Shown piece by piece: positions 6,001 through 42,000 of a stretch of DNA of 44,003 nucleotides (the stretch's first letter is position 1; each line of letters opens with the position of its first letter). The stretch spans positions 1 to 44,003 of the forward strand of contig BTVJ01000060.1 in assembly GCA_045863395.1 (NCBI GenBank), given 5' to 3'. Position numbers: made by a program. This DNA is from Myxococcales bacterium. Lineage in GTDB: Bacteria > Myxococcota_A > UBA9042 > JABWCM01 > BTVJ01.

Positions 6001-9000
6001 CGGAGGCCGAGGTGCTGCTGGAGCTGGAGGCGGGCCGAGTCGCCCTGGAGCGGATGCGCCAGCGTCGTCGGCCCTCGGACGCTTCGGCTCGGGTGATCGA
6101 GATCGAGGGCGAGATCGAACCATAGGAGGTGCGCGATGGAGGTGATCGGCAGTGGGAGCTGGGGAGCCCTGGTGCGGGTCCGGAACACGCATCGGCGGTT
6201 CGGCCAGGTGGGATGGGCAGACGTGGCGGCTCGAGGAGGGGCTGGCGGCGGCGTAGGTGGCGTGATCGAGGTGCACGATCCGTCGTCGCGGGTAGTCGGC
6301 GTGGAGGCGCTGGGGACGCGGCTCGAGCGGATCCAGCAGGGGAGCTGAGCGGCGGGCGTGTGCGTGCCATGCGGGATGGTATCGTTGCGCCAGGGCACTT
6401 CCGCCGTCCACGGGAAGTGCAGGATCCGCCCCGATGAGGAGGTAGCCGTTGGTCACGCAGTCACCAGCCCCAGGCACGCACCCTCCAACCTCTCCCGGTT
6501 CACCCCCGGGCTCGCCGTCGCAGCTCGCCGTGATGGCACCGGCCAGCCCGGAGCTGGTGGCGGCGGCTCGGCGGGCGCGCCGGGCGCGGGCGACCATTGC
6601 GCGCGGCGACATCAACGAGTTCATCCACTTCGTGATGCGGGACCAGCAGACGGGGGCGCCTCTGCTGCAGCAGCCGATGCACGAGGAGTGGCATGCGCTC
6701 GCCGATGAGCACCAGAGGTTGGTGGTCTGGGGGCACGCGGAGAGCGGGAAGTCGCAGCAGATGGCCATCGGACGCATCCTGTTCGCGCTCGGGCAGAACC
6801 CGCGGCTGCGGTGCGCCATCATCTCGAACACGTCGGGCCCGAAGGGGCAGGCAACGAAGCTGCTGCGGTCGGTGGCGCAGTACATCGAGAGTTCGTCGGA
6901 GCTGCACGAGGTGTTCCCGGAGCTGCAGCCGTCGCCGCGGAAGTCGGACCCGTGGACGACGGAGGCGATCACGGTGGAGCGGCCGCCTGGGATCAACGAC
7001 CCGAGCGTGCAGCAGTGTGGGGCCTTCGGGTCCATCCTAGGCAGCCGCATCGACTTCCTCGTGGTGGATGACCTGCTCGACTGGACGAACACGCTGACGG
7101 AGCACCGGCGCAAGGCGGTGATCGGCTGGTTCCAGGCGAGCGTGTTGTCGCGCATGACGACGCGGAGCCGGGCCATCGTCATCGGCAACGCCTGGCACCC
7201 GGACGACCTGATGCACGTGCTGGAGCGACGTGGCTGGACCGCGCTGCGCTACCCGGTGCTGGACCCGAGCGGCGCCTCCAAGTGGCCTGAGCAGTGGCCG
7301 GAGGAGCGCATCGAGGCGAAGCGAATCGAACTGGGTCCGCTGGAGTTCGCGCGGCAGATGATGTGCTTGCCGCGCTCCGACGAGGACGCGCGCTTTCGGC
7401 GGGAGTGGATCGACCAGTGCATCGAGCGCGGCGAAGGCCTCGACCTGGTCGGCTCCGACGCGGAGGCCAGGCTGCCTGATGGCAGCGAGATCTGGACGGG
7501 CGTCGACCTTGCTGTCGGGCGCGACAAGAGCAAGAAGCACGCGAAGTCCGTGGTGTTCACCATCGCGATCCTGCCGGACAAGCTGCGGTCCCGTCGCGTG
7601 CTCGCCATCGAGGCCGGTCGCTGGACGGGGCCCGAGATCGTGGCGCGCATCCAGGCTGCGCACCAGGCGTTCGGGTCCATCGTGCAGGTCGAGAGCAACG
7701 CGGCGCAGCAGTACATCGTGGACTTCACGAAGGCGGAGGCGCGGATCCCCGTCCGGTCGTTCCACACGGGTCGCAACAAGCACGACCCCACCTACGGCGT
7801 CGAGAGCATCGCGGTCGAGATGTCGCGCGGGCAGTGGATCATCCCGAACCACACCGGGCAGTGCCACCCGGAGGTGCAGGCATGGATCGCGGACATGCTC
7901 TACTACCACCCCGAGTCCCACACCGGTGACTACCTGATGGCCTGCTGGATCGCGCGCGAGGGGGCGGACAAGGGCAAGCGGGCGTTCGCGTACCGGGTGG
8001 GGGCGGTGGACGACGGGTCGGAGGGGCTGTGGGACATCGATGGGGGCGGCGATGGCGCGGACCGATCCTGGAGGAGCCGAAGCCAGGAGGACGTTCAGGG
8101 GCAGGAGCTCTGGGGTGGCTTCGACTTCGACGAGCACGACGACTTCGGGGGCTGACGGCACCTGACGGCACCTGACAGCACCACAGCCACGCCACGGAGC
8201 GTCCCCCTTGCGCTCGATGGAGATGTCGGGGTACGCTCGTGACGTGACAATATGAGGTGCCCTATGAGCTGGCCAGTCAAGGAAGCGGGACCCTTCGAAG
8301 AGATCAGCGGCGAGGTGGTCCTCGACTACCACACGCTCGGCTACCACCCCGGCGTCGTGTTCCGGGCTCACGAATTCCACTTCACCAACCTGGGCGCCGG
8401 GACGGCGAGCGTCTACGTCTGGGGGGCTGGCGGCGACTGGTCTGCGCACGGCAGCCCCGTGACCAACAACAGCGTGGTGCAGCTCGAAGGTGCGTCCCCA
8501 CGCTTCCGCTTCGTCTTCGCGGGCACCGGCGGCGCTGGCAAGGTCAGCGTCCGCAGCACGGCCCGCGGGTTCTGAGGCGCGGCGGTGGCGGCGCTCTGCG
8601 AGCCGGGGCCCTTCACGCGGCTGCTGCACGACAGCGGCCTGCTCGGGGCCCTCCGCAAGGCCGAGGAGGATGGCAGCCGCGGCGCAGTCGGACCGCGAAG
8701 GGAGGCTGCCGGCCATCCGCGGCCGCAGCGCCCGGGGCCGTACATCGGGCCTCGGGGCGGTAAGTGGGCGGATCCAGAGCACACGATCCCATGGAAGCCT
8801 TCACAGGTGGACGATGGCGTCGCACTCGATGATGACGCCGATCCGAGTGAAGAACCAGGTTGCTCAGTACTGGTGACCGGATCTGAACCGCTCGGGCCCG
8901 TGAAGGCCCACATGACGGAGGACGAGGTACGCGAGGCCATCGGCGGGTGGCACGAGGAAATCGGCGTCATTTTTGGCCAAGACGGGAAGCAGCTTGCGCG

Positions 9001-39000: not shown

Positions 39001-42000
39001 AGACCGCAGGCGTTCGCGGGGTTCGGAACCTGGAACGGTGGAAGAGAGCCCATCCTCGTGAGTGGGTCGCCACCTTGAACGTTCACATGCTTCGAAACTA
39101 TACTGCCCTGGGGCTGACGATCACGGAGGAGGCCCATGAGTCCATCAAAGAGGGACAGCCGCATCCGGCTGAGCAGCAAGTGGATTTTCCATCCCACTCC
39201 TTTGCCGACGCCGAAGCAAGCGCGCCTGGAGCGGGAAGCCTTCGAGGAGATGGCTGCCAAGCACCGCAAGTGGCTCGAGGACCGAGCCAAGGCGGCGAAG
39301 ACGGAAGCCGTGGGGAATTCGAAGGCCCCCTGACCCGCCTCGTCCGCTCCTGCTTCCGCAAGGCGACTCCGCCCGACCCCTCGGAGCTCCCGACCCCTCT
39401 CACGTTCACCGCCATCTTCGAGCAGCTCCGGGCCCAGGGCATCCTGCCCCAGGGCGGAGCCTCGTCACGCAGCGCGAGGTAGTTCATGGCCACCCCGATT
39501 GCCCAGGCCGGCAACGACATCGCGACCACAGAGGCGAGCCTCCCGCAAGCGGCGGTGGCCCTCGCGGGCGCCGGCAACGATCCCGACGGTCTCCCGATCA
39601 CGGGCTACCTATGGACGTTGCTCTACAAGCCTGACGGCTCCAATGCAGCCTTGACCAACGCCACGACGCCCACTCCGACCGTGGGGCCCATCGACGTCGC
39701 GGGCAACTACCGCGTCTTCCTCCAGGTCCGTACCGAGGACAACCGTGTGAGCGAAGGCAACCCGCGCCTCGCGCCCGCGTCGGCCTTCGTGCACATCCGT
39801 GTGTCCGGACGCTACACCGGCCTTGAGCGGATGGCGACGGGGGAGCGGGACCACACGAGCCGCAGCAACGCCGTGGTCGACCAGGTGGAGCTTCTGCGAC
39901 GCGACCTCGACGACCAGAGGATCGTGGACCATGACACCGTCGCGACCGGAGCGCAGTTGAATGTGCTGGTCGGAGGCGGTTCGACGAACCTGCACACGCA
40001 CCCACTGAAGCCCCACACCATCGCGGAGCACACCGACACGACGGCCACCGGAGCGCAGCTCAACGAACTCGTCGGCGGCGGGCCGACGGAACTGCACAAG
40101 CACCGGATCCAGGACCACTGGAGCGACACGGTGGTCACAGTGCCCATCCGCCCCGACGTCACGTTTCTTCCCGGGGGGCTCCAGAAGCCCGACGAGACCA
40201 ACCCAGCCCTTTTCGTCCTGTTCATCGACATCCCAATTCGAGTCGACGCATGGCGATTGATGATGCGGGACGCTGGGAAGGTCCCGAGCGGTCAGTACTA
40301 CCGCTTCCGCCTGGTTGAGGCTACGGTCCAGCAGTATCTCGTGGGTGACTACAGCGGTTCTGTCGCTCTAGCCACGCTGGATGTGATCCCGGTGGCGGGG
40401 AACCACAAGGCAGGGATTGCGGGATTGACGCTGCCAACCCCATATGTCTGCGCCCCCGGGCGCTACTTGTGCGTCGAGATGCTTCGCGGGCCGAGCGGGG
40501 ACGACGACGAACTCGGCGACACGATCACCTCGCAGGTCGTCTACACCCGGGTGCAGTAGCATGGAGCGGGGCTACGGATCCCCCTCGTCCATGGGCGCGC
40601 AGGGGAACGTTGACGGCCAAGGAGTCCTGGTGCCCTTTGATTGGGGCTACGGCTCTCCGTCTGCGCTCGACGGCGGCGATACCGGGTACGGTGCTCCGTG
40701 GAGCGATGAAGCCCTGTCCATGGGCGCATACGTCCTCCACCCCGCGGGCGCCTTGCCGGACGACGGCGGCGTGATCGTGGAGCTGGGCGGATCCTGGGAG
40801 TCCGTCCCCCACCTCGTTCGATTGCTGGCAACCTCCGGCGCCGCCTTCCCTCCCGGTCGCACGTGCCATGGCGGCGTCGCTGGCAGGGGCGTCGATGTCG
40901 TTCCCGTGTTCGGTGGCGCTGTTCTCCGATTCGTCCTCCCGCCGTGTCCGCCCGGGCGATACGACATCGAGATCACCTACGGAGGCGTTGTCGTGATCGT
41001 CCCTGGAGCGATACGGGTGCAACGGCGGCTTCGTCCGGGAGCGACCTACCGGCTCCGGGCGAACCTGACGGCCCTGTTCGCTGCAGGACCACGACACCCA
41101 GGCGAGGAGGAGCTGCTGCCCGGGGGAGTGACGTGACGCTGCACGAGGCCCAGCAACTGCGCCGCCTGCCGATGGTGCGCGCCGATCGGGAAGTGCCGGA
41201 GGTGCTGTTGTGACCGCAGAGGCCCTCGATCTGCTGACAGTAGCGCTGATCGGGGATGGTCTGCCCCTCGATGGCTGGACGATGACCGCCCCCGAGGGCG
41301 CAGCATCAGTGACGGTCGTTCTCGCCTTCGCCATCGACGGAGGCGTGGCGCTGCGTGTCCACCCGGAGCTGACCCCGGGTGCGACATACCTCGTAGATGG
41401 ACCGGCGGCGGCGGACGTGACCGTCGGTCCGCTCCTGGCGCCTGCGTCCCACCGGGGCTTTCCGCGACCCCCATTCGCGGCGCTGACCCAGGCGCTGGGC
41501 GGCGAGGTAGACGAGCTCTCCGGGGAGCCCGCTACCCTGCTGCTCCGGGATGCCATACCGGGCGACTCCAGGCTGCTCGTCGAGTCCACGCTGCGCTTCC
41601 CCTCCGAGGGAGCGGCTTGGGTGGGCCCCTACCGTGTCGCGTACACGTCGCGTACCGACGGCGCTCTCCACGGGAGCACCTGGCCCGACCACGCCTACCG
41701 GACGATCTCGGCCCGCACGGTGGTGGCGCTCGAACTGAGGTCCGCTGACTTGCCGGTTGCGCTCTCCCGCATCGAACGAGCGCGCCGCGAGACGCTGATC
41801 CACCGATGTCCGGACGCCGCCCTCGACGGGCTCGCGCAGCTCCATGGGGCCCCGCGGCCGCCGGGCTTTCCTCGTGCCGGCTGGCGCCACGCATTGCACG
41901 CGGTAGCCTACGGTCGTCGCGGCGTACCAGGTACAACGTTCGCCGTCATCCGCGCGGCTCTGGCGCATCGTGAGTCGACGTTCTCGGTGGTACTGGATCC

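What a model noticed while it worked through the whole genome (the two positions that open the first line are those of the whole stretch)
8585..39482. A conserved peptide tag (LxK[AG]..GP[YF]IGPRGGKWADP) marks phage effector and polyvalent proteins; three tagged toxin-li [...]
Three reading frames of the C60 prophage share a leader (EPGPFTRLLH[DE]SG ... GPRGG[KR][WY]ADPE) in front of different effector domains: a colicin-E5-like RNase (g04574, followed by a small gene), a JAB-like HNHP domain joined to InPase (C60:8585-10705, only its last 283 aa called) and a second JAB-like domain (C60:38187-39482, not called). The same peptide recurs in many phages at domain borders of polyvalent proteins, usually just after LxK[AG]; it is a candidate head-packaging or processing tag.
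Evidence so far: Leaders align at 48-56%; the two uncalled frames align at 35%, E 2e-27. A back-translated pattern hit 66 viral loci, several contigs twice; 65 frames hold the peptide, 60 with [LVIM]xK[AGS] within 40 residues upstream. Of 48 such proteins scanned, 29 carry a Pfam domain, nearly all effector-type: InPase 9, ddrB-ParB 5, SNF2/helicase 5, zeta toxin 3, ART-PolyVal 2, SAM lyase 2, PAPS reductase 3, topoisomerase IB 1. LxK[AG] also recurs in this phage's portal, protease and scaffold-like proteins.
(Added by a program. Inside this text positions count along the whole contig: contig position 1 is position 1 of the stretch shown here. "Call 12" and the like, gene names such as g00115 and contig names such as C1 are that model's own, and its searches are not shown. 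The text may have been shortened before it was handed on; [...] marks where a part breaks off. The agent that wrote the report below was given it as the finding of a first reader that could run no searches.)

Follow-up and report, generated by a model that had tools for sequence, protein, structure and literature searches.

The report
Tagged phage cargo with hidden antidotes
A virus lying dormant in a bacterial chromosome puts the same short peptide, just behind a likely "cut here" signal of its head protease, on three toxin-like proteins, and two of these toxin genes hide a small antidote-like gene inside themselves in another reading frame; loading into the virus head, cutting and protection are predicted, not measured.

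Summary
Three frames of this integrated temperate phage (8585, 32948, 38187) carry a private leader and a 20-22-residue GPRGG peptide. The peptide occurs in about 790 protein clusters, nearly always in phages with the same SPO1/Herelleviridae-type head genes. It follows [LIVM]xK[AGS] within 6 residues in 45 of 59 cases (background 3%). That motif fills the scaffold and matches the 24-residue N-terminal loss of the phi812 capsid protein, so it is probably the prohead-protease site. The peptide lies after the cut, so it is more likely a retained tether than a removable loading signal. Its partner is unknown; no packaging or cut is shown.

The JAB call is now supported by structure (JAMM1 Z 9.4, RadC Z 7.9).

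New here: both JAB genes contain a small +1-frame gene with a ribosome site and a promoter-like site. For the first, RNA contigs of one study lie on it, and a complex model puts its product over the JAB active site (0.64 against control 0.02). These look like MuF-type toxin-immunity cassettes absorbed into polyvalent proteins.

The parts
8585..10708 (+). Tagged polyvalent protein, 707 aa: leader, LxK site, GPRGG tag, JAB/RadC-like domain, dual-coded linker, InPase, C-terminal module of no known family
   Evidence: GAGG seen 8 nt before the GTG
8600..8644 (+). Private leader peptide (EPGPFTRLLHDSGLL), copy 1
   Evidence: 8 of 9 variable sites among the three copies are third codon positions
8651..8662 (+). 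Predicted prohead-protease site LRK|A
   Evidence: cut inferred
8735..8794 (+). GPRGG tag, copy 1
8876..9391 (+). JAB/MPN-fold domain with E28, H75, H77, S84, D87 invariant
9321..9349 (+). Promoter-like site (8 of 12 matches, 17-nt spacer) inside the JAB coding sequence
   Evidence: below the 9/12 bar
9402..9620 (+). Nested +1-frame gene, 72 aa, predicted immunity protein of the JAB domain
   Evidence: codon-position GC swap, coding score, RNA contigs 9380-9766, complex model 0.64 against best control 0.02
9689..9742 (+). Segment P.PLTFTA..EQLR.G shared with the 38187 frame, just after a second LxK site; shows that the main frame is conserved beyond the nested gene
   Evidence: no exact match in viral contigs
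9908..10273 (+). Polyvalent-type InPase domain (PF18823)
   Evidence: E 9.7e-38
10725..12338 (+). Portal protein
12598..13935 (+). MuF-like minor head protein (label from a homologue annotated 'minor capsid protein' and a recalled motif; no Pfam hit)
14281..15057 (+). Herelleviridae-type prohead protease
15072..15773 (+). Scaffold-like protein with 6 LxK[AG] sites (0.8 expected)
15830..17290 (+). Major capsid protein of the SPO1/phi812 type, with LNK|A near the N-terminus
32948..33610 (+). Tagged colicin-E5-like RNase: leader 32990-33034, LEK|G at 33128, tag 33206-33259, RNase domain 33407-33592
33582..33887 (+). Small gene overlapping the end of the RNase gene, AGGAGG ribosome site; candidate immunity protein
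   Evidence: no Pfam hit; same fold as three unnamed Atlas clusters, TM 0.71-0.75
38187..39482 (+). Second tagged JAB-like protein, 431 aa: leader 38202-38246, LxK sites at 38283 and 38364, tag 38418-38477, JAB domain about 38565-39130
39075..39104 (+). Promoter-like site (9 of 12), the only one found in 38100-39600 (0.2 expected)
39136..39333 (+). Nested +1-frame gene, 65 aa, strong ribosome site; candidate immunity protein (binding not modelled)

Best explanation
The three genes encode capsid cargo of a temperate myovirus with an SPO1-type head. (1) They are made late and built into the prohead, probably through the helical leader that ends at the LxK site (inferred). (2) The phage's prohead protease cuts after Lys in [LIVMF]xK|[AGS], in scaffold, capsid protein and cargo (inferred from the motif and the phi812 capsid protein). 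(3) Each freed module keeps the GPRGG peptide at or near its new N-terminus. The peptide holds it in the maturing head, most likely on the packaged DNA or the inner wall, so that it is ejected with the genome (inferred; weakest step; DNA and a head protein are about equally likely partners). (4) The modules act in the newly infected cell. The JAB/RadC-like and E5-like domains are toxins. The lysogen is protected by small immunity proteins; for the JAB domains these are encoded in the +1 frame inside the cargo gene and read from an internal promoter (gene shown by sequence signals, binding supported by a model only).
For: Tag position: K within 6 residues upstream in 45 of 59 (3.0% background); 299 of 340 in the best 150 profile hits (3.4%; partly circular, as the profile holds the K column). 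0 of 51 tags overlap a Pfam stretch. Conserved as peptide, not DNA: majority fraction 0.88/0.92/0.55 by codon position. Context: 68 of 72 tag loci (34 of 36 groups of near-identical loci) carry this phage's terminase, portal, MuF-like, protease or capsid gene within 6 kb. Cut motif: 8-12 sites in each of 7 related scaffolds and 8 each in the SP-10 scaffold and protease. PDB 9row (439 aa) is 5lii (463 aa) offset by 24 residues, i.e. begins after VVK24. Retained role: 21 of 47 frames hold two or more tags, and 9 of 47 have a MuF-like domain before the tag, so would need no further loading signal. Other basic-aromatic peptides fill the same slot (25 hits in 23 proteins, 21 within 11 residues of a K site). 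Toxin-immunity: the JAB domain usually ends MuF proteins (13 of 16 scanned) and is followed by a small gene with a ribosome site in 44 of 59 (10% background). It is nested in 7 of 11 clearly internal cases; 0 of 61 control head genes show nested coding. Complex model: score 0.64, best of 3 controls 0.02; the mark was reached by 116 of 157 solved and 2 of 215 mismatched pairs; runs agree in at least 92% of contacts, partner pLDDT at least 70; the interface covers E28, H75, H77, S84, D87. RNA contigs in two samples of one study lie at 9380-9766. Integrase and a 55-bp att in tRNA-Val show lysogeny.
Against: No cut, packaging, ejection or toxicity is measured. No cultured phage holds the tag (0 matches in 50,697 records), so no virion proteome can be checked. 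The tag alone gives no confident fold (pLDDT 62, pTM 0.15) and is near neutral in charge, which is unusual for a DNA tether; the flank after it is only mildly basic (+0.97 against +0.33 per 24 residues). In this phage the tag is 20-28 residues from the K site. Most LxK sites in tagged proteins have no tag (1084 against 319; 819 expected by chance), and InPase modules often start at a K site with no tag. The sheath has 3 motif copies (p 0.04). The 9row length could reflect how the entry was deposited. 4 of 11 internal JAB domains have no nested gene with a ribosome site, and the nested cases are partly related to each other. Promoter-like sites precede only 7 of 48 partner genes (4.2% background). 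The RNA hint is from one study, the runs were found with 8500-10800, and contigs give no strand or start.
Confidence: 0.55

Rival explanations
1. The GPRGG peptide is itself the loading signal: it binds scaffold, portal or capsid protein during prohead assembly, and multiple copies are relics of fusions of singly tagged genes.
For: Very tight conservation (12 or more near-invariant positions) suits a protein partner. Many proteins have only a 2-10 residue leader before the K site, leaving little else to address them. The tag is confined to one head lineage.
Against: It lies after the predicted cut, unlike the T4 capsid targeting sequence (recalled). It recurs behind MuF-like domains (9 of 47) and after internal sites. 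Other peptides can take its slot.
Confidence: 0.2
2. The peptide is an exosite: LxK plus GPRGG form one extended recognition element that makes cargo a preferred substrate or sets the timing of cutting.
For: Fixed 3-6 residue distance from K in most cases.
Against: Scaffold, protease and capsid protein carry bare sites. In this window the distance is 20-28 residues.
Confidence: 0.07
3. The peptide acts after injection, steering each enzyme to nucleic acid or a host complex, like the PBCV-specific basic adaptor hairpin with which it shares the GPRGG core.
For: Profile comparison with adaptor sequences: probability 87.6, 14 columns. Adaptor-bearing kinases A278L and A282L were found on virion DNA (PMC3281028, passages).
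Against: The comparison is circular, as the adaptor set was picked by GPRGG. 0 of 61 tags hit PF08789 while 31 of 31 adaptor sequences do. Tag-bearing phages lie in bins of several phyla, so one host target is unlikely.
Confidence: 0.1
4. The long frames are not read through: the small genes are ordinary downstream immunity genes and the main frame is open across them by chance in GC-rich DNA, so 8585 would be a JAB toxin gene plus a separate InPase gene.
For: The overlap is low in complexity in the main frame, and stops are rare in that frame at high GC.
Against: There is no stop after the JAB domain in either copy, nor in L001, L092, L182, L200 or L210. The main frame resumes with an LxK site and a segment conserved between both copies. 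I saw no ribosome site before the GTG at 9857. Either way the JAB domain is translated through the overlap.
Confidence: 0.05

Closest known systems
Phage-type polyvalent proteins (Iyer et al. 2017, PMC5512222; abstract, passages, sections 29 and 32 read)
   Same: Disparate effector domains in one chain (InPase, ddrB-ParB, ART-PolyVal, LPD1, SNF2, RadC-clade JAB), genes among late head genes, predicted packaging.
   Different: In the parts read, processing is ascribed to built-in zincin metallopeptidases; I saw no mention of a prohead-protease site, this tag or nested genes. The paper's alignment files on an FTP site were not seen and could hold the peptide under another name.
MuF polymorphic toxins (Jamet et al. 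2017, PMC5576092, passages and supplement search; Zhang et al. 2012, PMC3482391, passages)
   Same: Temperate phage; toxin domain followed by a small putative immunity gene (89.4% of 191 in the paper); supplementary Table S5 lists MuF proteins with RadC as toxin domain. This JAB family ends MuF1/MuF2 proteins in 13 of 16 scanned.
   Different: The three window proteins have no MuF domain; leader, cut site and tag stand in its place. The JAB cassette is internal, with its small gene overprinted in the +1 frame.
Prohead-protease processing of head cargo in T4, phiKZ and SPN3US (PMC10052503, abstract and introduction read; T4 capsid targeting sequence recalled)
   Same: A short motif with a fixed residue before the cut, shared by capsid, scaffold, protease and internal proteins.
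   Different: Lys instead of Glu before the cut. A conserved peptide follows the cut and is repeated at internal module borders; nothing here is confirmed by mass spectrometry.
PBCV-specific basic adaptor domain (PF08789)
   Same: [YF]xGPRGGx[aromatic] core; small add-on to unrelated virion-packed enzymes.
   Different: No profile hit (0 of 61). Lacks the adaptor's N-terminal TGxKDxKGR part, has a distinct WADxxHTIPW end and is not strongly basic.
Herelleviridae (SPO1, phi812, SP-10) head module
   Same: Homologous protease, capsid protein and LxK[AS]-rich scaffold.
   Different: This phage is temperate, about 65 kb assembled (C113 plus C60), 69% GC; no cultured phage carried the tag.

Membership tests
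Polyvalent proteins | Two or more functionally disparate domains in one chain | tested here: met
   8585 frame: JAB fold plus InPase. The other two frames hold one effector each and do not meet it.
Polyvalent proteins | Gene among late/head genes of a portal-terminase phage | tested here: met
   8585 lies between terminase and portal; the other two lie among baseplate genes
Polyvalent proteins | Packaged in the virion and delivered on infection | not testable with these tools
   no proteome; no cultured carrier
MuF toxins | N-terminal MuF domain | tested here: not met
   no MuF hit in the three frames; present in 13 of 16 JAB homologues
MuF toxins | Small gene directly after the toxin domain | tested here: met
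   9402, 33582, 39136
MuF toxins | Encoded by a temperate phage | tested here: met
   integrase PF00589 and att in tRNA-Val on the adjoining contig
JAB/MPN+ superfamily | JAB/MPN fold | tested here: met
   model pLDDT 84.9; Foldseek JAMM1 E 5e-5; VIA-align Z 9.4 (rmsd 4.2, 108 aligned), RadC Z 7.9 (rmsd 3.1, 95 aligned)
JAB/MPN+ superfamily | E...HxH...S..D metal site | tested here: met
   H75, H77, S84, D87 invariant and E28 at 90% or more in 82 sequences; six residues between H and S, against the seven I recall for classic JAMM
[quoted passage not shown] | Profile match above cut-off | tested here: not met
   RadC weak in 5 of 82 members, best E 0.0015; none for the window domain; no DUF4329 hit
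JAB/MPN+ superfamily | Peptidase or nuclease activity | not testable with these tools
   nuclease role of RadC-like toxins is a proposal in PMC3482391
Colicin E5-like RNase | PF12106 match above cut-off | tested here: met
   29 bits against cut-off 25
Colicin E5-like RNase | ImmE5 partner | tested here: not met
   no Pfam family for 33582-33884
PBCV basic adaptor (PF08789) | Profile match | tested here: not met
   0 of 61 tags at E up to 10; 31 of 31 positive controls
PBCV basic adaptor (PF08789) | GPRGG hairpin core | tested here: inconclusive
   14 columns align, but the set was selected on this core
T4-type capsid targeting sequence (features recalled) | N-terminal and removed by the prohead protease | tested here: not met
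   the GPRGG tag lies after the predicted cut and also internally; the private leader would fit this feature
Herelleviridae-type head maturation | Homologous protease and capsid protein | tested here: met
Herelleviridae-type head maturation | Cleavage after Lys | tested here: inconclusive
   9row equals 5lii less 24 residues, starting after VVK; no paper on the specificity found

The most novel reading that the evidence does not exclude
A large uncultured phage lineage uses a 'cut-then-tether' code: the head protease splits cargo polyproteins at LxK|[AGS], and interchangeable mini-hairpin tags left on each fragment hold it for co-ejection with the genome, while toxin cassettes captured into these chains keep their immunity genes as separately transcribed genes overprinted in the +1 frame.
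Probability: 0.3. Interest if true: 0.85.

Novelty: new variant of a known kind. Interest (0 to 1): 0.7.

Why it matters
How polyvalent and MuF-type effectors are loaded, processed and kept in the head until ejection is open; a 20-residue peptide with a defined neighbouring cut site makes it testable by reporter fusion and N-terminal proteomics. The tag also finds unknown cargo: 16 of 42 tagged proteins had no Pfam hit. The nested genes are missed by gene callers, explain odd low-complexity linkers in polyvalent proteins, and give a testable inhibitor for a RadC-like domain whose activity is unknown.

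Tried and rejected
No family or structure for the tag: Pfam, NCBIfam, PDB sequences, ESM Atlas; structure prediction of the tag alone failed, so no fold search was run on it. Paper search for 'GPRGG' listed 31 of 33 papers, none on phages by title or abstract start; 'polyvalent proteins'+phage+MuF gave 4; DUF7211, a recalled analogue, gave 0; the MuF/toxin/immunity/overlapping search showed nothing on nested genes. 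The library lacks most subscription papers. DNA-level repeat or recombination site: rejected, variation is at third codon positions. Assembly error: not supported. Tag in related host genomes: 0 of 60 searched. Close relatives of this phage by capsid protein: only 25-27% matches. A single-sequence homologue search for the JAB region found none; the alignment search found 89. PADLOC: only one weak hit, E 0.005. A general promoter before all partner genes: weak. The second JAB pair and tag-partner binding were not modelled (one job only). RNA levels could not be ranked from contigs; parts without RNA cover show nothing. One paper fetched by a guessed id was unrelated; PMC10054541 passages gave nothing on cleavage. 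42 of 47 tagged frames were scanned by Pfam; left out were L033, two L038 frames, L065 and L079.

Full report
Setting. The window is all of contig C60. It runs from replication genes through terminase, portal, a MuF-like gene, protease, scaffold, capsid, sheath, baseplate and amidase. Its start overlaps the end of C113 by 55 bases. C113 begins with a tRNA 3' end and an integrase (PF00589, E 1e-22); the same 55 bases end C74, within a tRNA-Val gene behind flagellar-type genes, and flank C106. So this is a prophage integrated at tRNA-Val. Protease and capsid protein are of the Herelleviridae type: 711 phage records, mostly of Staphylococcus, Bacillus, Enterococcus and Listeria; PDB 9vel, 5lii, 9row.

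Observation. The three frames, their leader and the GPRGG peptide are as described. The peptide profile finds only these three places in the genome. Leader copies differ at 8 third and 1 first codon position, and tag DNA in viral loci varies mainly at third positions: both are kept as peptide. The leader has no exact match elsewhere.

The tag elsewhere. One DNA pattern gave 82 viral stretches, 65 distinct frames, 59 after dropping 6 chance matches. Consensus: LxK[AG]GP[YF]IGPRGGKWAD[PA]xHTIPW. A profile found 790 clusters at E up to 0.001 among 1.84 billion representatives. K of [LIVM]xK[AGS] lies within 6 residues upstream in 45 of 59 (3.0% background). 68 of 72 tag loci carry this phage's head genes. 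26 of 42 scanned frames have Pfam hits: InPase 10, ddrB-ParB 6, PAPS reductase 4, zeta toxin 3, LPD1 3, SNF2 2, ART-PolyVal 2, SAM lyase 2. No tag overlaps a Pfam stretch (0 of 51, P about 1e-4 under uniform placement). In genomes, 9 of 22 pattern matches hold the peptide; one pair lies in a Myxococcales chromosome beside portal and MuF-like genes. No cultured phage matched.

The cut motif. Seven related scaffolds hold 8-12 LxK[AGS] sites each, proteases hold them at both ends, and capsid proteins have one near the start; SP-10 is alike. The 439-aa capsid chain of 9row is the 463-aa chain of 5lii offset by 24, so it starts after VVK. I infer cleavage after Lys by the prohead protease, as SPN3US cuts after AXE (PMC10052503, introduction). 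I found no paper stating this specificity. In the window the motif is enriched in scaffold and JAB frames, not singly in portal or protease, and appears three times in the sheath.

What the tag does. It follows the cut, repeats at internal borders (21 of 47 frames have two or more) and follows MuF-like domains (9 of 47; 18 of 150). This favours a role after cutting. Other peptides fill the slot: HKYIRR...RYxY and PPG[FY]xPxPGxKHGG types, and another in cultured phage MA9V-3. The GPRGG core recalls the PBCV basic adaptor, whose kinases were found on virion DNA (PMC3281028, passages), but membership fails and the alignment is circular. The tag alone does not fold confidently. The partner is not determined.

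The JAB domain. With 82 aligned sequences the model reached pLDDT 84.9. Best matches: JAMM1 (E 5e-5; Z 9.4, rmsd 4.2, 108 aligned) and RadC (Z 7.9). The metal-site residues are conserved. In other phages this domain mostly ends MuF1/MuF2 proteins (13 of 16), and MuF-RadC toxins are already listed in a supplement of PMC5576092.

Nested genes. After both JAB domains the GC pattern swaps from third to first codon position over a +1-frame ORF. A coding-score screen of 72 tagged frames gave 12 hits: 7 were overlaps with the upstream gene, 5 internal (all 4 JAB domains with DNA, plus L049); 0 of 61 control head genes. Among 59 terminal JAB domains, 44 are followed by a small gene with a ribosome site (10% background); of 14 with longer tails 7 have one inside the main frame, i.e. 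7 of 11 with tails over 200 residues (loci not filtered for kinship). Promoter-like sites precede both window genes and that of L001 (8, 9 and 11 of 12), but only 7 of 48 overall. Two RNA runs of one study have identical contigs at 9382-9766 and 9380-9713, their longest listed true pieces on 1-20000; runs were selected with 8500-10800 and contigs give no strand, start or level, so this is a weak hint. The complex model of JAB domain and 72-aa product scored 0.64 against a best control of 0.02 (mark reached by 116 of 157 solved, 2 of 215 mismatched pairs; contacts agree at least 92%; partner pLDDT at least 70). Residues 22-34 lie along strand 49-55 and the interface covers the metal site. This supports an immunity protein; it does not show binding.

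Comparison and novelty. The parts belong to known kinds: polyvalent proteins, MuF toxin-immunity pairs, protease-processed head cargo. The tag was in none of the libraries or paper searches named under Tried and rejected; the FTP alignments of PMC5512222 and the Ct_MAD profile were not seen. Earlier notes of this scan describe the same tag (e1-5988661) and a nested gene in another polyprotein (e1-5993863); they are not independent support. Verdict: real, a new variant of a known kind, interest 0.7.

Noticed in passing
window:32078-32311 (-): HicA-type toxin gene (PF07927, E 1e-20) inserted against the tail operon, with no HicB seen beside it; a 73% similar stretch lies on C109.
   Followed up: partly
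window:43940-44003: The contig ends inside a tRNA-Met-like sequence (89% over 46 nt to a host tRNA-Met on C35); ARAGORN called no gene on C60. The 570 bases before it have a 78% copy on C2.
   Followed up: partly
window:1-80: 21-bp tandem repeat at which the assembly broke between C113 and C60, upstream of a DnaC-like gene; possible origin iterons.
   Followed up: partly
window:17545-21482: Two long related repeat proteins (770 and 537 aa) directly after the capsid gene, with no LxK[AG] site; only an unknown-function PHROG hit for the first. Possibly outer decoration proteins.
   Followed up: no
window:12338-12592: 84-aa gene between portal and MuF-like gene with an MAK|A site; homologues occur in related loci, and similar small modules are fused ahead of tags.
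   Followed up: partly
P0096, P0018, P0117 and others: A kinase-like module (LGKGDDG.AF..GD.VVKVST) without Pfam label recurs in 27 of the 150 best tagged proteins; kinase reading recalled, untested.
   Followed up: no
L049, main frame residue 957 onward: A 113-codon +1-frame gene nested in a tagged polyprotein that has no JAB domain at that place.
   Followed up: no
L290:6371-7933 and 14001-14708 (Chryseobacterium phage MA9V-3): A cultured phage with LxK-rich head proteins carries another repeated hairpin-like peptide after LEK/IEK sites; its virions could test the cut-plus-tag idea.
   Followed up: partly
L292:2458-3762 (-), C113: The left half of the prophage encodes a C5 cytosine methylase, a YqaJ recombinase, an SMC-like ATPase and RusA.
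   Followed up: partly
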